Assembly (NCBI GenBank): GCA_036559405.1
Contig: DATBTF010000092.1
Location: forward strand, 1-59,552
Source: Bdellovibrionota bacterium
GTDB taxonomy: Bacteria; Bdellovibrionota; UBA1018; CAIPTA01
Reading direction: 5' to 3'
Length of the DNA: 59,552 nucleotides
Both the position numbers and the translations under genes were made by a program. The notes under the pieces are model-generated. The model was given only the letters and a program-made list of their open reading frames with translations, was not told the origin of the DNA and made no database searches. Positions 2,675-7,737 of the stretch are shown one piece after another. Every line of letters begins with the position of its first letter. Positions within the stretch are counted from its first letter, which is position 1.

Positions 2675-3838
2675 TCACACGTACAAACCCTTCTTGATCT
2701 TCTCAAGAATGATCTTCTCCATCATCAGCTTGTCTTTGGGGTCCACGGAAAAGAGCGACTGCTGCTCGCAGCGGATCTTCTCCTTCATCAGCCAGCGGAG
2801 AATATCAGAGAGGCCTTTGTTCTTTTTATCGAGAAAGAAGGGATCGCCCTCGAGAGCATCTTTCGCCTTCTTCAGCGCGCGCGCTTCGGCCGGGTCATTT
2901 TCTTTTACTTTGTAGTAAGGCAGGTCGTATTTCTTCACGTCATCCGGCAGCACGCCGAGAAAACGCACAGAAGGAGCCGAGAAATGCTGGTTCCGGATCA
3001 GCGAGGCCGCTGAGCCCGCCTTCAAAGTACGGAAAATATTTTGCATCGTATAGGCGTCAAGATCGCCGAAGAAGTAGATTGGAATGTCGAGCTCTTCCTG
3101 GATCAGCTTACACCAGCCACGCACGCCGTTCGAAGGAACGCCTTGGGCACCGATCAGAATCGAATTATTGCGCTTGGTAAAACCGTTGCTCTGGAGAGTG
3201 TTCGCCGTGCCTTCGGATTCCACCACCAGAGCGAAATCGATCTTCTTCTTCGCCTTGAGCCTGAGCGACTGCGGCTTGTTCTTGGGCTGATAAGGCGCGG
3301 TTCCCAAGGTAGAGAGATCCACCGTCGCCTTGGTGCCGTCAGCCATGGTTTCCGTTACTACAAGCTGCTGGGAATAGGTTTGCCCGCCGCGGTCGTTGGC
3401 GAAGCAGTTGAGCTCCTCGCGATACACCTGAAGCATATCGCCGATAAAATCGATAATGGAGTCGCTCTCGTCCTGGTCTTCGAAGTCCAGAGGCTTGGTG
3501 CGCGGGTTCTTTTTGATGAGACCTTTACATATGTAATAGATCTCCCTTTTTGTGTTCACACTCTGGCTGGCCAGGTTATTGAGCAGGATCTCGAGGATGA
3601 ATACCACGCGAGCGAGCTTCTGCACCGAGCTTACGTTCAGCTCTGTTCGCACTACCTTATCGCCGGGAGTGAGATAGCCCACGCGCGGATTGTAAATAGC
3701 GTTATCGAGCGAGGCCTTCACCGCCTCGAGCACCGGCCGCTTGCTCTTCTCGAGGTCGGAAAGCATCCTGTCCGCGAGGATGCGCGCTTCTTTGGGAATA
3801 TCGATCTTAAGGTCGCGGATCGTAATCATCTTGGACAT
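2675..3838 (-). CDS. top6A: DNA topoisomerase VI subunit A (Spo11/Top6A family)
   Basis: 387 aa. KREIYY block (catalytic Tyr region of the 5Y-CAP domain). Toprim block IPIYFFGDLDAYTMQNIFRTLKAGS. Starts 9 nt after the top6B stop. Confidence 0.9.
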   Translation of the reverse strand: MSKMITIRDLKIDIPKEARILADRMLSDLEKSKRPVLEAVKASLDNAIYNPRVGYLTPGDKVVRTELNVSSVQKLARVVFILEILLNNLASQSVNTKREIYYICKGLIKKNPRTKPLDFEDQDESDSIIDFIGDMLQVYREELNCFANDRGGQTYSQQLVVTETMADGTKATVDLSTLGTAPYQPKNKPQSLRLKAKKKIDFALVVESEGTANTLQSNGFTKRNNSILIGAQGVPSNGVRGWCKLIQEELDIPIYFFGDLDAYTMQNIFRTLKAGSAASLIRNQHFSAPSVRFLGVLPDDVKKYDLPYYKVKENDPAEARALKKAKDALEGDPFFLDKKNKGLSDILRWLMKEKIRCEQQSLFSVDPKDKLMMEKIILEKIKKGLYV

Positions 3839-3847
3839 AATGTGTTC

Positions 3848-5650
3848 CTATTTCGACTTCGACGAAGATTTTTTGCCCGAGCTTTTCGCCTTTTTCTTGG
3901 CGGCCACTACCCCTGCTTTCGCGCCTGGAAAGAGTTCGGCCTGCTCCCCTGGCTTGAGCTTGGGAGCCTCGGGAGCCGGTGCCTCTTCTGCGGCGGCGGG
4001 CGGAGCATCGGGATCCTCGCCTCTTTTCTTGGCTTCGCGGGCGCGCAGGTCTTTGAGCTTGGCATCGGCCTCGGCCAGCTCCTCGTGGGCGTCTTTGGAG
4101 TCGCGTCCGAGCAGCTTCATCAGCCCTTCCTCGGCCTTTTTCTTTCGGGCCTCGGAGCTCTTCGTGATGTTCACAAGGCTTTCCACCAGGATCGGGCCGA
4201 ACTGCTCGATATGTGCTAATTTTCTTTCAAGATCAGCCTCTTTCGTCTCTTTTCTGATGTGGCGGCTGAGCTTCTGGCCGGCCTGAATCAGGGCCCGGCG
4301 GATCTCCTCCACCAGCTCTTCCGACGCGTCCACGGTCTCTTTCGAGGCGTTCTTAAATTTAATGAACGGAGACACCACCGAAACGGCGAATACATAGGGC
4401 CCGATCGGCAGGCTCTCTTTGGGCTGCCCCAGGCCATAGGTTTTCCAGTTCACGCTCTCGATCGCCCAGGTGATAGCGCAGCCCGATTTATCGAACTGCA
4501 GCGGTACACGGTTGGCGAATCGCAAAAGCTGTATGGGGGCATCCGCTTCCAAATTCCTATTTTTAAACCGCGCAAGTGCCACTTCCACGGCCACAGGCTT
4601 GAAGTCGCAGATCGCGGGCTTGCGGGTGACCACGGAGAAAAAGTCGATCTCACCGAGCCGACCGATGGATTTGCTCATCGCCTCTTCGCCCACGTTGAGC
4701 ACGCTCTTGGTGGAAGGCGCCATCAGCTCGATGTCCTGCATGGCGGAAAATACTTTTTTGAACTCATCCTCTTTCAAGGAGGTGAGCGACTTATCCAGCA
4801 GGCCTTTGGTGATGCCCTTGCCTTTGAGATCCTTGATGGCCTGGTCGGAAACCCGGGAAAATCCCGTGCGCAAAAACTTCTCGAACGAAACTTTCCCGAA
4901 CAAATGCGCATGCGTGATGAATTCACCCAGTTTAAAGGTGTGAGGATGCGGCAACGTGGCCTCGGGAACGCGCGGAACTTCCTGGCTCACCCGCTCCACA
5001 TGCACCCAGTCGTTGTCGAGCAGCTTATAATGCAGGGTCATGTGCGGGTTCACCAGCACCGTGCCCTCGAGATAGGTGATCAAGCCGCCGTCGCCGTTCA
5101 GCTGGATACGTCCGTCGAGGCTGAACTCGCAGCGCACGCCGCTTTTTTTATCGTCCCAGTCGATGGTGTCTTTTTTGCGGAGCACGCCCGTATTGGATTT
5201 GATGTCCACGTCCACCTGCGCGGTCACAGCCTTGCGCATATTCGCCTTTTTGGTGGTGACGAAGGCGCCCTTAGCGTTCGTGAGCTGGGCCCAGGTAGTG
5301 GCGGCCGAGATCCCGATCCCTTGCTGGCCACGCGAACATTGCCCTTTGCCGAACTTGGAGCTGGCCAGGTATTCGCCGAATACCTTGGCGAGGTCGTCGG
5401 GGTCGATGCCGGGACCGTTGTCTTCCACGGCGATATGGATGAGCTCGGTATTCTTGGTGGAGCCCACGCCCTTGCGTTTAATTTCTACCGTAAGCTCAGG
5501 CAGGATGCCTGCGTGCTCGCAGGCGTCGAGGGAGTTGTCCACGGCCTCTTTCAGCGTGGTGAGCACCGCCTTAAGGGGGGAAGAAAAGCCCACCTGCTGG
5601 AGGTTCTTGGCAAAGTATTCGGCTGTGCTGCTTTTTGTGATCTTGCTCAT
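3848..5650 (-). CDS. top6B: DNA topoisomerase VI subunit B (GHKL ATPase) with Lys/Ala-rich C-terminal tail
   Basis: 600 aa. Bergerat-fold motifs LKEAVDNSLDA (N-box), EDNGPGI (G1), GQQGIGIS (G2), followed by a transducer-like region. The last ~95 aa are low-complexity and end AKKKAKSSGKKSSSKSK. Confidence 0.9.
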   Translation of the reverse strand: MSKITKSSTAEYFAKNLQQVGFSSPLKAVLTTLKEAVDNSLDACEHAGILPELTVEIKRKGVGSTKNTELIHIAVEDNGPGIDPDDLAKVFGEYLASSKFGKGQCSRGQQGIGISAATTWAQLTNAKGAFVTTKKANMRKAVTAQVDVDIKSNTGVLRKKDTIDWDDKKSGVRCEFSLDGRIQLNGDGGLITYLEGTVLVNPHMTLHYKLLDNDWVHVERVSQEVPRVPEATLPHPHTFKLGEFITHAHLFGKVSFEKFLRTGFSRVSDQAIKDLKGKGITKGLLDKSLTSLKEDEFKKVFSAMQDIELMAPSTKSVLNVGEEAMSKSIGRLGEIDFFSVVTRKPAICDFKPVAVEVALARFKNRNLEADAPIQLLRFANRVPLQFDKSGCAITWAIESVNWKTYGLGQPKESLPIGPYVFAVSVVSPFIKFKNASKETVDASEELVEEIRRALIQAGQKLSRHIRKETKEADLERKLAHIEQFGPILVESLVNITKSSEARKKKAEEGLMKLLGRDSKDAHEELAEADAKLKDLRAREAKKRGEDPDAPPAAAEEAPAPEAPKLKPGEQAELFPGAKAGVVAAKKKAKSSGKKSSSKSK

Positions 5651-5962: not shown

Positions 5963-6388
5963 TTAATCTTCGTCGGTCTCCACCTTCACCGTGATGATTT
6001 GGGTCTCGCAGACCATCGCCCCGCGAACGTTGACGGCAACGTTCTGCTCGCCATCCTTCAACTTCGCCTTAATGCATTTCAGATAGGTGCGGTTATCCAG
6101 GTGCGCCGCATTCGCCATATAAGGTGAGATGCCGTAGGCGCCATAGGGCTGGTAGTACATCGGGCCATACATCGGCCCCCCCCAGTACATGGGCCGCCAG
6201 CCCACCCCGTACCAAGGCATAAAGCCCGTCGGACCCACTATGTAAGGAGTGGCAGGCGCTACGATCACCTTTTTAGTCACCACCGTACCCGTTACCACGA
6301 CCTCGTCAGAAAACGCCGTAGCCGAAGCCAGCAGAGCTGAGGCTCCGAATGCCAGGCCCACGGGCCATAGTCTTTTTGGGAATTTCAT
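5963..6388 (-). CDS. Secreted hypothetical protein (Gly/Pro/Tyr/Met-rich middle)
   Basis: Signal peptide MKFPKRLWPVGLAFGASALLASATAFS. ATG at 6388 sits after GGTGGAG; the ORF-track start at 6397 is a GTG three codons upstream. Own terminator. No family recognised. Confidence 0.6.
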   Translation of the reverse strand: MKFPKRLWPVGLAFGASALLASATAFSDEVVVTGTVVTKKVIVAPATPYIVGPTGFMPWYGVGWRPMYWGGPMYGPMYYQPYGAYGISPYMANAAHLDNRTYLKCIKAKLKDGEQNVAVNVRGAMVCETQIITVKVETDED

Positions 6389-6575
6389 ATTCTCCACCCC
6401 TATCCGTCTTCTTATTTTATCAGGGGAACAGAGCGCTTTCAGCTGTCTCTTCGCGGAGTCAGGGTGCCCTCAATTTCCCGTTGTTTTTTGGCGAAGAACT
6501 TTTGGACAGTTTCCGCCCCTGAACCCCCGGAGCTTCTATGAGAAATCTTGTTTATGCCGCGCTGGGCGTCACAGC

Positions 6576-6604
6576 TTGAGTTCTTCGTTTTAGTCTTCTA
6601 GACT
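6576..6604 (+). promoter_or_regulatory. Sigma70-like promoter candidate for the histone-fold gene (TTGAGT-17 nt-TAGACT)
   Basis: -35 TTGAGT at 6576-6581, 17-nt spacer, -10 TAGACT at 6599-6604, about 50 nt upstream of the ATG at 6658, which has GGAG 7 nt upstream. Motif match only. Confidence 0.35.
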
Positions 6605-6657
6605 AGCCGAAAGTAAAAAACAGCGCCCTTACCGGTGCACTTTCTATTGGAGAACTC

Positions 6658-6852
6658 ATGGCTAAGAAGAAAATGGAAGCTCTCGTGATCGCCAGCAAAG
6701 CAAAACAAATACTGAAAAAAGCGGGCTGCAACACCGCGGGTGACGCCTTCGACGGCCTCAATGGCGTAATCTACTGGTATCTCGAGTCGGCTGCTAAGCG
6801 CGCCAAGGCGAACGGCCGCAAAACCGTGCGCTCCCACGACTTCTGCGTCTAA
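6658..6852 (+). CDS. Bacterial histone-fold protein (singlet histone, HMf/Bd0055-like)
   Basis: 64 aa: MAKKKMEALVIASKAKQILKKAGCNTAGDAFDGLNGVIYWYLESAAKRAKANGRKTVRSHDFCV. The C-terminal AKRAKANGRKTVRSHDF matches the loop2/alpha3 signature ..AKHAGRKTIKAEDI.. of archaeal HMf-type histones. Length and helix pattern fit one histone fold. Monocistronic, with its own promoter candidate and terminator. Confidence 0.75.
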   Translation: MAKKKMEALVIASKAKQILKKAGCNTAGDAFDGLNGVIYWYLESAAKRAKANGRKTVRSHDFCV

Positions 6853-6870: not shown

Positions 6871-6898
6871 AAAAAGCCTCCCGCCCGGGAGGCTTTTT
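6871..6898. terminator. Bidirectional rho-independent terminator between the histone gene and the J-protein gene
   Basis: AAAAAA-GCCTCCC-GCCC-GGGAGGC-TTTTT: A-run upstream and T-run downstream, between convergent genes. Confidence 0.65.
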
Positions 6899-6903
6899 GC
6901 TTT

Positions 6904-7737
6904 TCAGGAAGCCTTCTTTTCCCGAATCGACCTCACCGCATTCTCCAGTTCCGCGGAGATCACCTCCGGCAGCACGATCAGCAGCTTCACCAGCAGATCG
7001 CCCCTCGCCCCGCCCTTGGCGTGAATGCCCTTGCCGTTCACGCGCAATCGCCGGCCGCTATTGGAGTGGCGCGGGATGCGCAGCTGCACCTGCCCTTCCG
7101 GCGTGGGCACCGCGAGCTCACCCCCGAGCACGGCAGTTTCCAGCGGAACAGCCAGCTCGTGCACGAGCGTGGAGCCCTCCAAGGTGAAGCGTTCATCCGG
7201 CGCGAGAAAGAGCTCCACATACACATCTCCAGGCGCGCCTCCGCCCAGGCCCGGGCCGCCCTGTCCTTGAAAGCGCAGCTTTTGCCCCGGCGCAACGCCC
7301 CTGGGAATGCGCACATGCAGGCGTTTGCCCGAAGGAAGGCGGATCTCACGCTCGCCACCCAGAATGGATTCTCTCAGGCTCATCTCCATCTGGTACACCT
7401 CATCCACTCCGGGCATGTGGAAGCCGCCCGCACGCCCGCGCCGGCGTCCGCCGAAAAGTCCTGAGAAAAAATCCTCATCGAATTCATACTGCGGCTGGGC
7501 ACGGGGCCCGGCCCCGGCCTCGTCCATTCCCCACTCACCCTTGTCGAACTTCGCGCGGTTTTCGGGAGTGCCCACGATCTCGTAGGCCTGGTTGATATCT
7601 TTGAAGCGGTGCTCAGCCTGCTTGTTTCCCGGGTTGCGATCCGGATGGAATTTTTTCGCCAGCTTGCGGTAGGCGTTCTTGATCTCGTCCTGCGAGGCAG
7701 TACGGGAGACACCCAGCTGCTGATACGGGTCCAGCAT
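6904..7737 (-). CDS. DnaJ-class II / CbpA-like J-domain co-chaperone (no zinc finger)
   Basis: J domain DPYQQLGVSRTASQDEIKNAYRKLAKKFHPDRNPG (HPD). Gly/Phe/Arg linker. DnaJ C-terminal beta domains (GAPGDVYVEL, LRVNGKGI). No CxxCxGxG repeats. ATG at 7737 is preferred to the ORF-track start at 7857, which would overlap ftsH. Confidence 0.85.
   Translation of the reverse strand: MLDPYQQLGVSRTASQDEIKNAYRKLAKKFHPDRNPGNKQAEHRFKDINQAYEIVGTPENRAKFDKGEWGMDEAGAGPRAQPQYEFDEDFFSGLFGGRRRGRAGGFHMPGVDEVYQMEMSLRESILGGEREIRLPSGKRLHVRIPRGVAPGQKLRFQGQGGPGLGGGAPGDVYVELFLAPDERFTLEGSTLVHELAVPLETAVLGGELAVPTPEGQVQLRIPRHSNSGRRLRVNGKGIHAKGGARGDLLVKLLIVLPEVISAELENAVRSIREKKAS

What the first reader, a model, noticed from the sequence alone, without database searches (positions are those of the whole stretch)
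6658..6852. Stand-alone histone-fold protein in a bacterium, with its own promoter and terminator
The 64-aa product has the size and helix pattern of a single histone fold. Its C-terminus AAKRAKANGRKTVRSHDF closely matches the loop2/alpha3 signature of archaeal HMf-type histones (..AKHAGRKTIKAEDI..). It also matches my recollection of the Bdellovibrio singlet histone Bd0055/HBb. The gene is monocistronic. A TTGAGT-17-TAGACT promoter candidate, a GGAG SD and a strong bidirectional terminator are consistent with high expression. Bacterial histones are known but rare and poorly characterised, and the genomic context here is new to me.
Basis: partly seen in the sequence, partly recalled or inferred. 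Interest (0 to 1): 0.7.

Follow-up and report, generated by a model that had tools for sequence, protein, structure and literature searches.

The report
Bacterial face-to-face-type histone gene
This is a real, stand-alone gene for a small histone in a Bdellovibrionota bacterium; it belongs to an already described class of bacterial histones, and its closest studied relative forms tetramers that wrap about 60 bp of DNA.

Summary
The 64-aa ORF at 6658-6852 (+) is real and under purifying selection. It has 558 close homologues and relatives in at least 540 species genomes. It is monocistronic: the upstream gene is divergent and the downstream gene is convergent. It has a GGAG SD, a phylogenetically conserved TTGAGTTC-17-TAGACT promoter block, and a bidirectional GC hairpin terminator.

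The AlphaFold2 model (pLDDT 90.6) is a histone fold with a 4-residue alpha3. Its best PDB matches are bacterial histone HLp of Leptospira perolatii (TM 0.97, rmsd 0.6 A, 46% id), then HBb/Bd0055 (37% id), then archaeal HTkC.

The protein carries the full face-to-face (FtF) signature K16/R48/N52/R54/T56/D61. This includes the two tetramerisation residues (R48, N52) that HBb-type dimer histones lack. I therefore predict an HLp-like torus tetramer that wraps DNA, not an HBb-like bender. The oligomeric state could not be modelled here.

FtF histones in Bdellovibrionota, Myxococcota and related groups are already published. This is therefore a new member of a known kind.

One side observation may be new. 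In one sub-lineage the histone gene sits next to the topoisomerase VI operon, in two different arrangements. The linkage is not universal.

The parts
6576..6604 (+). Candidate sigma-70-type promoter: -35 TTGAGT (6576-6581), 17-nt spacer, -10 TAGACT (6599-6604)
   Evidence: Read directly from the sequence. It matches the consensus at 8/12 and the scan did not call it. A TTGAGTTC...TAnAnT block with 16-17 nt spacing is conserved upstream of orthologues in L012, L023, L084, L088, L090, L095 and (partly) L091. The transcription start site has not been mapped.
6649..6652 (+). Shine-Dalgarno GGAG, 5 nt upstream of the ATG
   Evidence: An SD core (GGAG/GAGG/AGGA) lies within 20 nt of the start codon in 64 of 76 related loci.
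6658..6852 (+). Histone gene: 64 aa, 7.0 kDa, pI 9.9, 13 K+R against 5 D+E. It has an alpha3-truncated histone fold with the FtF signature K16, R48, N52, R54, T56, D61.
   Evidence: Helices in the AF2 model are 12-21, 30-51 and 59-62.
6872..6904 (.). Bidirectional intrinsic terminator. The GC stem is 6876-6882/6887-6893 with loop GCCC, an A-run on the 5' side and a U-run on the 3' side. It is shared with the convergent J-protein gene.
   Evidence: Folding on both strands gives -21.9 and -25.3 kcal/mol with z -3.1 and -3.5. In the downstream folds printed, most related loci show a strong GC-rich hairpin, often with a T-run, within 70 nt of the stop codon; I did not count them.
2675..5650 (-). 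Topoisomerase VI operon (Top6B 3848-5650, Top6A 2675-3838), divergent from the histone gene. This is a linked neighbour in this sub-lineage; a functional link is not established.
   Evidence: Pfam hits Topo-VIb_trans 1.4e-44, TOP6A-Spo11_Toprim 7.5e-38 and TP6A_N 1.1e-14. The same pairing is seen in 9 other loci. It is absent from 4 of 4 further Top6BA loci.

Best explanation
The gene encodes a bacterial histone of the alpha3-truncated family, face-to-face (FtF) class. It is expressed from its own promoter as a monocistronic transcript that ends at a bidirectional terminator.

By analogy with HLp of Leptospira perolatii, I propose the following mechanism. Two chains form the handshake histone dimer through antiparallel alpha2 helices. 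Two dimers then join through the C-terminal end of alpha2, loop L2 and the one-turn alpha3 (R48, N52 and R54 against H60 and F62) to give a closed torus-shaped tetramer. DNA is bound without sequence specificity on the basic perimeter. The contacts are the N-terminus of alpha1 (A12-S13-K14, K16, K20), loop L1 (T26, G28) and loop L2 (K55, T56). The DNA is wrapped, about 60 bp per tetramer in HLp. The protein would thus act as an abundant nucleoid-organising protein.

Shown here: the ORF is real and under selection, it has a histone fold with a truncated alpha3, it is closest to HLp, the RD clamp and the FtF signature residues are present, and the gene is monocistronic.

Inferred: dimer and tetramer formation, DNA wrapping, abundance, and a global chromatin role.

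The confidence of 0.6 applies to the full statement including the tetramer-and-wrapping mechanism. That the gene encodes an alpha3-truncated bacterial histone is near certain (about 0.97).
For: Fold:
- AF2 gives pLDDT 90.6 with helices 12-21, 30-51 and 59-62.
- Foldseek gives HLp 9qt0 TM(target) 0.97, rmsd 0.6 A, 46% id. HBb gives 0.85-0.89, rmsd 1.2-1.3 A, 37% id. HTkC gives 0.88. HMfA/B give only 0.52-0.58.

Sequence:
- HLp scores 45.9 bits (E=3.3e-11) against 30.4 bits for HBb.
- With the family profile, HLp scores 64.6 bits against 42.1 for HBb.

FtF signature:
- Schwab et al. 2024 (PMC11390915) name HMM-logo positions K16, R48, N52, R54, T56 and D61 as the conserved FtF residues. They state that bacterial dimer histones lack R48 and N52.
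- Hu et al. 2025 (PMC12701072) show that HLp R49, N53 and R55 build the tetramer interface and are conserved in predicted tetrameric bacterial FtF histones.
- In the gap-free alignment these residues are R48, N52 and R54 of this protein. They are invariant in 66 family members.
- hmmalign gives KRNRTD for both the query and HLp, and KSDRTD for HBb. The R48+N52 pair is present in 94 of 106 singlet cluster representatives.

DNA contacts:
- HLp residues A13, S14, K15, K17, K21, T27, G29, T56 and T57 map to A12, S13, K14, K16, K20, T26, G28, K55 and T56. That is 8 of 9 identical, and the ninth is Lys.
- The protein is strongly basic (pI 9.9, net charge about +8).

Gene architecture.

Other FtF or dimer histones (L. 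interrogans, HBb) are among the most abundant proteins and are essential (PMC10627809 and PMC11390915).
Against: - The oligomeric state was not modelled.
- Two of the six HLp interface residues differ (S52->A51, T61->H60).
- This family carries 1-3 extra, variable C-terminal residues after F62, whereas HLp ends at F63. This could disturb the dimer-dimer contact.
- Several HLp dimer-core residues are replaced (V16->A15, L42->Y41, L47->A46), and a family-specific W40 is present.
- Schwab et al. list Elusimicrobiota alpha3 histones under 'bacterial dimers'. Near-identical proteins occur in MAGs labelled Elusimicrobiota. Part of this family may therefore have been classed as dimers when AlphaFold gave no confident tetramer.
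- There are no expression or DNA-binding data for this protein.
Confidence: 0.6

Rival explanations
1. It is an HBb/Bd0055-like 'bacterial dimer' histone. It stays a dimer, binds the minor groove through alpha1 and the L1-L2 loops, and compacts DNA by sharp bending, as HU/IHF do, rather than by wrapping.
For: - It belongs to the same alpha3-truncated family and the match to HBb is significant (E=3e-6; TM 0.85).
- 7 of the 10 HBb DNA-contact residues listed by Hu et al. 2024 are conserved: S9, K10, K12, K16, N22, K52 and T53 map to S13, K14, K16, K20, N25, K55 and T56.
- It has 'RKT' in L2 as HBb does, whereas HLp has 'RTT'.
- It has a C-terminal extension beyond F62, and HBb also continues past its alpha3.
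- Elusimicrobiota alpha3 histones are listed as bacterial dimers in PMC11390915.
Against: - The published diagnostic for the dimer class is absence of R48 and N52. This protein and all 66 aligned relatives have both.
- It is clearly closer to HLp than to HBb in sequence (64.6 against 42.1 bits) and in structure (rmsd 0.6 against 1.3 A).
Confidence: 0.27
2. It is a histone-fold protein that is not a general chromatin protein. For example, it could be a specific partner or regulator of the neighbouring topoisomerase VI, or of another factor, using the histone fold as a protein-protein module.
For: - The gene lies within about 1 kb of the Top6BA operon here and in 9 other loci, in two arrangements.
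- Schwab et al. caution that not all prokaryotic histone-fold proteins need be global organisers.
Against: - Relatives of this protein (60-91% identical) occur in more than 150 loci without Topo VI nearby.
- 4 of 4 other Top6BA loci of the clade lack it.
- The DNA-contact residues and the basic surface are invariant.
- The gene has its own promoter and terminator and is not co-transcribed with top6.
Confidence: 0.05
3. It is a spurious ORF or a non-coding region in GC-rich DNA.
For: Short ORFs are abundant by chance in this 59.5% GC window: 49 ORFs of at least 40 aa lie within 6 kb. Two overlapping ORFs lie on the minus strand.
Against: - 558 homologues and relatives in at least 540 species genomes.
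- Synonymous codon differences outnumber non-synonymous ones 1336 to 720.
- A confident fold.
- An SD and a terminator are conserved across loci.
Confidence: 0.01

Closest known systems
HLp, face-to-face histone of Leptospira perolatii (PDB 9QT0/9QT1/9QT2; Hu et al. 2025, PMC12701072)
   Same: - 46% identity with no gaps over 58 residues.
- rmsd 0.6 A to the model.
[quoted passage not shown]
- The RD clamp is shared (R54-D61 against R55-D62).
- The tetramer residues R49, N53 and R55 correspond to R48, N52 and R54.
- 8 of 9 DNA-contact residues are identical.
- Both have a short basic N-terminal tail.
   Different: - L2 reads RKT, not RTT.
- S52 is replaced by A51 and T61 by H60 at the tetramer interface.
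- There are 2 extra C-terminal residues.
- W40 and Y41 sit in alpha2.
- The genomic context differs: SMC/MAP/DUF350 in Leptospira, Topo VI here.
- The host phylum differs.
- The tetramer and the wrapping are not demonstrated for this protein.
HBb / Bd0055, bacterial dimer histone of Bdellovibrio bacteriovorus (PDB 8CMP, 8FVX, 9EZZ, 9F0E)
   Same: - Same alpha3-truncated fold.
- 37% identity.
- Shared S-K motif at the alpha1 N-terminus, RKT motif and RD clamp.
- Same phylum label.
- Stand-alone small gene.
   Different: - HBb has S and D where this protein has R48 and N52, and it is strictly dimeric and bends DNA.
- HBb has a one-residue insertion in loop L1.
- The sequence score is lower than for HLp (30 against 46 bits).
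HTkC, archaeal FtF histone of Thermococcus kodakarensis (PDB 9F2C)
   Same: A torus-tetramer class with the same conserved R/N/R-T-D signature. TM 0.88, and E=1.3e-6 with the family profile.
   Different: 28% identity, an archaeal host, and no N-terminal basic tail.
Archaeal nucleosomal histones HMfA/HMfB
   Same: The histone fold, the GRKT motif in L2 and the RD clamp.
   Different: - Alpha3 is about 10 residues and alpha2 is longer.
- They have a four-helix-bundle tetramer interface and form hypernucleosomes.
- TM is only 0.52-0.61 and E=0.25.
- Pfam PF00808 does not detect this protein.

Membership tests
Histone-fold superfamily | Helix-loop-long helix-loop-helix (alpha1-L1-alpha2-L2-alpha3) architecture | tested here: met
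   AF2 gives pLDDT 90.6 with helices 12-21, 30-51 and 59-62. All 50 best PDB fold matches are histone or histone-fold proteins.
Histone-fold superfamily | L2 'R-K/T-T' DNA-contact motif and intramolecular R-D clamp | tested here: met
   R54-K55-T56 and D61 align with R55-T56-T57/D62 of HLp and R51-K52-T53/D58 of HBb. They are invariant in 66 relatives.
Histone-fold superfamily | Match to the curated sequence models (Pfam PF00808 CBFD_NFYB_HMF; NCBIfam NF043032 archaea_histone) | tested here: not met
   No Pfam hit even at E<=10. NCBIfam gives 16.8 bits against a cutoff of 50. The curated models do not reach this subfamily. Homology is shown instead by PDB sequence and profile searches.
Histone-fold superfamily | Obligate handshake dimer | not testable with these tools
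alpha3-truncated histones (Schwab et al. 2024) | Alpha3 of only 3-4 residues and a shortened alpha2 | tested here: met
   Alpha3 is residues 59-62 and the protein ends at residue 64. Alpha2 is 22 residues. The model superposes on HLp, HBb and HTkC (TM 0.85-0.97) far better than on HMfA/B (0.52-0.58).
Face-to-face (FtF) histones | Conserved signature K16, R48, N52, R54, T56, D61 of the FtF HMM logo | tested here: met
   The query reads KRNRTD, identical to HLp. R48, N52, R54, T56 and D61 are invariant in alignments A1 and A2. The definition comes from PMC11390915.
Face-to-face (FtF) histones | Torus-shaped homotetramer formed by two dimers through both faces (the feature that defines the class) | not testable with these tools
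Of the six HLp interface residues, four are identical (R48, N52, R54, F62) and two are substituted (A51, H60).
Face-to-face (FtF) histones | Sequence and structure closer to verified FtF members than to other histone classes | tested here: met
   HLp is the best hit in phmmer, in the profile search and in Foldseek.
Bacterial dimer histones (HBb class) | Absence of the FtF tetramerisation residues R48 and N52 | tested here: not met
   Both residues are present and invariant. HBb has S and D at these columns.
Archaeal nucleosomal (HMf-type) histones | Full-length alpha3 (about 10 residues) that forms the four-helix-bundle tetramer interface | tested here: not met
   Alpha3 has 4 residues and only 2 residues follow it. 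HMfA gives E=0.25 and TM 0.52-0.56.
DUF1931 pseudodimeric histones | Two histone folds in one chain that match PF09123 | tested here: not met
   The protein has a single fold of 64 aa and gives no PF09123 hit. The depositors' label 'DUF1931 domain-containing protein' on 9QT0 is only a name.

The most novel reading that the evidence does not exclude
In a Bdellovibrionota sub-lineage, the FtF histone and the archaeal-type topoisomerase VI form a selectively maintained chromatin module. The two genes stay within about 0.1-1 kb of each other through at least one rearrangement. The top6BA operon is upstream and divergent in the window, L084, L090 and L091. It is downstream and convergent in L012, L023, L085, L088 and L095. 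The other flanking genes change. This would suggest that Topo VI handles the supercoils or catenanes created by histone wrapping. It might also suggest that both genes were acquired together from archaea. The near-identity of this histone across MAGs labelled as different phyla (members of one 90% cluster carry Bdellovibrionota and Elusimicrobiota labels) would then point to either eukaryote-like sequence constraint or recent inter-phylum transfer.
Probability: 0.12. Interest if true: 0.6.

Novelty: new member of a known kind. Interest (0 to 1): 0.3.

Why it matters
Bacterial histones were recognised only recently, and only two (HBb and HLp) have been characterised. They use opposite DNA-binding modes: bending by a dimer and wrapping by a tetramer.

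This gene belongs to a very large, very highly conserved and so far unstudied branch, with relatives in at least 540 species genomes labelled Bdellovibrionota, Elusimicrobiota, Myxococcota, Krumholzibacteriota and others. The branch combines HLp-type tetramer residues with the HBb/archaeal 'RKT' loop. It is therefore a good test case for which sequence features decide between wrapping and bending.

For genome annotation, NCBI calls this protein 'hypothetical' and Pfam misses it, so the family is under-annotated.

In itself the finding adds a member to a published class, not a new kind of system.

Tried and rejected
1. Pfam and NCBIfam scans of the protein gave no usable hit. Identification came from PDB sequences and the fold.
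2. I tried to predict a tetramer by submitting four copies joined by (GGGGS)6 linkers with a matched 13-row alignment. The oligomeric state remains inferred.
3. I looked for a neighbourhood conserved across the whole family by clustering all ORFs within 4 kb of the histone gene in about 75 loci. Only within-lineage synteny appeared. One example is aspartate kinase, homoserine kinase, an RNase T-like exonuclease and P5C reductase in an Elusimicrobiota group. Nothing is shared across phyla.
4. I tested whether Topo VI linkage is general. It occurs in 9 non-self loci, but 0 of 4 further Top6BA loci carry the histone. I therefore rejected it as a family-level feature and kept it as a sub-lineage observation.
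5. I searched the supplements of Schwab et al. for this sequence motif or for Elusimicrobiota class assignments and found nothing held as text.
6. Rfam and tRNA scans of the window found nothing.
7. tblastn found no HU/IHF gene and no second histone copy in the window.
8. Both were assessed by folding and by comparison across loci instead.

Full report
OBSERVATION

The window holds an ATG-to-TAA ORF at 6658-6852 (+). It encodes MAKKKMEALVIASKAKQILKKAGCNTAGDAFDGLNGVIYWYLESAAKRAKANGRKTVRSHDFCV, 64 aa. GGAG lies at 6649-6652, 5 nt before the start codon.

The gene upstream (5963-6397) is on the opposite strand and has its own promoter-like and terminator-like sites. The gene downstream is a J-protein at 6904-7737/7857 and is convergent. 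The histone gene is therefore necessarily monocistronic.

The 51-nt gap to the convergent gene holds a GC hairpin, GCCUCCC-GCCC-GGGAGGC. An A-run and a U-run flank it. It folds at -21.9 kcal/mol on the + strand and -25.3 kcal/mol on the - strand (z -3.1 and -3.5). This is a bidirectional intrinsic terminator. The consensus scan did not list it.

It matches the sigma-70 consensus at only 8/12 and is not beyond chance on its own. A loose version of the pattern occurs 0.21 times per kb per strand in the window. However, a TTGAGTTC...TAnAnT block at the same spacing recurs upstream of the orthologue in L012, L023, L084, L088, L090, L095 and, cut by the 110-nt frame, L091. The surrounding sequence diverges in all of them. 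I take this as reasonable comparative evidence for a real promoter.

An SD core is present in 64 of 76 related loci. In the downstream folds printed, most related loci show a strong hairpin just after the gene; I did not count them.

IS IT A GENE?

Yes.
- The protein database holds 558 homologues with E<=1e-3. The top 120 are 63-67 aa apart from four of 59-93 aa, and 73-97% identical.
- A profile search of 1.84 billion cluster representatives found 1026 clusters at E<=1e-3.
- Across 74 loci, codons that differ synonymously outnumber those that differ non-synonymously, 1336 to 720.
- The exact protein is deposited as HEY8279267.1, 'hypothetical protein [Bdellovibrionota bacterium]'. JGI names it 'histone H3/H4'.
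- The window appears to be the whole 59,552-bp contig of that MAG.

WHAT IT IS

Curated profile libraries do not recognise it. Pfam gives no hit. NCBIfam archaea_histone scores 16.8 bits against a cutoff of 50.

Sequences of solved structures do recognise it:
- HLp of Leptospira perolatii (9QT0): E=3.3e-11
- HBb/Bd0055 (8CMP, 8FVX): about 3e-6
- HTkC (9F2C): 2.7e-3
- Archaeal histones: 0.05-0.1

With a 66-sequence family profile these become 6e-17, 6.5e-10 and 1.3e-6, and 4e-4 for the M. kandleri histone-fold protein 1F1E.

AlphaFold2 with that alignment gives pLDDT 90.6 and helices at 12-21, 30-51 and 59-62. Foldseek against the PDB returns only histone or histone-fold proteins in the top 50. 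HLp is first (TM 0.97, rmsd 0.6 A over 56 residues, 46% id). HBb follows (TM 0.85-0.89, rmsd 1.2-1.3 A, 37% id), then HTkC (0.88). HMfA/B reach only 0.52-0.58.

The protein is thus a member of the alpha3-truncated histone family defined by Schwab et al. 2024 (PMC11390915). It is not an HMf-type histone.

WHICH CLASS, AND HOW IT PROBABLY WORKS

Two alpha3 classes have been characterised in bacteria.
- HBb is a strict dimer that bends DNA (PMC11317129).
- HLp is a stable face-to-face (FtF) tetramer that wraps about 60 bp (PMC12701072).

The published diagnostics are explicit. The strongest conserved FtF positions are K16, R48, N52, R54, T56 and D61. [quoted passage not shown] In HLp the tetramer interface is R49, S52 and N53 against R55, T61 and F63, and R49, N53 and R55 are conserved in predicted tetramers.

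The alignment to HLp has no gaps. These residues therefore map to R48, A51 and N52 against R54, H60 and F62. hmmalign gives KRNRTD for both the query and HLp, and KSDRTD for HBb. The R48+N52 pair occurs in 94 of 106 singlet representatives. R48, N52, R54, T56 and D61 are invariant in the family alignments.

HLp's DNA-contact residues are A13, S14, K15, K17, K21, T27, G29, T56 and T57. They map to A12, S13, K14, K16, K20, T26, G28, K55 and T56. Eight are identical and the ninth is Lys.

The protein is very basic (pI 9.9, 13 K+R against 5 D+E) and has a short KKK tail.

I therefore consider an HLp-like mechanism most likely (about 0.6): handshake dimer, torus tetramer, non-specific wrapping of DNA around a basic perimeter, and an abundant nucleoid-organiser role.

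The main rival (about 0.27) is an HBb-like dimer that bends DNA. Points in its favour:
- the A51 and H60 substitutions
- the 1-3 variable residues after F62, whereas HLp ends at F63
- the 'RKT' loop
- the listing of Elusimicrobiota alpha3 histones under 'bacterial dimers' in PMC11390915

I could not settle the question.

CONTEXT

Immediately upstream and divergent lies a topoisomerase VI operon:
- Top6B: 3848-5650 (-)
- Top6A: 2675-3838 (-)
- A 144-aa signal-peptide protein of unknown family lies between the operon and the histone gene.

Downstream lie a CbpA-like J-protein, FtsH, two ABC exporters and Lon.

Across the whole family no neighbour is conserved.

Topo VI is different. It lies within 0.1-1 kb of the histone gene in 9 further loci whose Top6 proteins are 81-100% identical to the window's. 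Two arrangements occur. In the window, L084, L090 and L091 the operon is upstream and divergent. In L012, L023, L085, L088 and L095 it is downstream and convergent. The outer flanks differ. Four other Top6BA loci of the same clade (79-85% id) have no histone within 4 kb. The linkage is therefore recurrent in a sub-lineage, not obligatory, and its meaning is open.

COMPARISON WITH WHAT IS KNOWN, AND NOVELTY

- Hocher et al. 2023 already reported phylogenetically persistent histones in Bdellovibrionota, Leptospirales, Planctomycetota and Elusimicrobia.
- Schwab et al. 2024 placed bacterial FtF histones in Spirochaetota, Planctomycetota, Bdellovibrionota and Myxococcota.
- Hu et al. 2025 solved HLp.

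This gene is a new, uncharacterised member of that known class. What I did not find in the four histone papers I read:
1. the extreme conservation of this particular branch across MAGs labelled as different phyla; one 90% cluster contains members labelled Bdellovibrionota and Elusimicrobiota
2. the Topo VI linkage; a word search of Hocher et al. 2023 for 'topoisomerase' found no occurrence

Both are side observations that need phylogenetic work.

Verdict: observation confirmed, interpretation supported with a class refinement, interest modest (0.3).

Noticed in passing
window 2675-5650 (-) and 6658-6852 (+); also L012, L023, L084, L085, L088, L090, L091, L095: The histone gene and the topoisomerase VI operon (top6B-top6A) are neighbours, 0.1-1 kb apart, in the window and in 9 other loci. 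They occur in two different arrangements: operon upstream and divergent, or downstream and convergent. The other flanking genes vary. Four other Top6BA loci of the same clade (L170-L173) have no histone nearby.
   Followed up: partly
cluster of the window protein; loci L005-L008 against the window: The 90%-identity cluster of this histone includes proteins from MAGs labelled Bdellovibrionota and Elusimicrobiota. Relatives in Myxococcota, Krumholzibacteriota and Nitrospiria MAGs are 66-88% identical. This points to extreme constraint, recent inter-phylum transfer or mislabelled bins. These were not distinguished.
   Followed up: no
P0121-P0129: The best-scoring 50%-cluster representatives are tandem doublets of about 118-128 aa, with two copies of this fold. 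Both halves carry the ...NGRKTVR..D motif. P0121 and P0124 come from Candidatus Poseidoniales / Euryarchaeota MAGs. They match Pfam DUF1931 and PF00808 only below the cutoffs.
   Followed up: partly
window 6904-7737 (-): The convergent neighbour that shares the terminator is a J-protein. It has DnaJ and DnaJ_C domains but no zinc-finger domain hit, which is the architecture of the E. coli curved-DNA-binding protein CbpA. It is not conserved next to the histone in other loci (L084 has a CLC channel there).
   Followed up: no
window 5963-6397 (-): A 144-aa ORF (JGI aa) lies between top6B and the histone gene. It has an N-terminal signal-peptide-like segment and a Y/P/M/G-rich middle. It has no Pfam family and was found only in contigs of the same population (L001-L003).
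   Followed up: partly
window 3848-4010 (-), C-terminus of Top6B: Top6B ends in a low-complexity tail of about 55 aa that is rich in Lys, Ala and Glu (...AAKKKAKSSGKKSSSKSK). Related Top6B proteins vary in length (549-650 aa), and tblastn matches to them stop at about residue 544.
   Followed up: no
L173 9082-9755: In a related Bdellovibrionota contig, a bacterial type IB topoisomerase gene (Top1B_N_bact/Topoisom_I) lies about 2 kb from the Topo VI operon.
   Followed up: no
window 6872-6904: The consensus terminator scan did not report this hairpin. It appears to meet the scan's stated criteria: 7 G-C/A-T pairs, a loop of 4 and a T-rich tail. Folding shows it clearly.
   Followed up: yes
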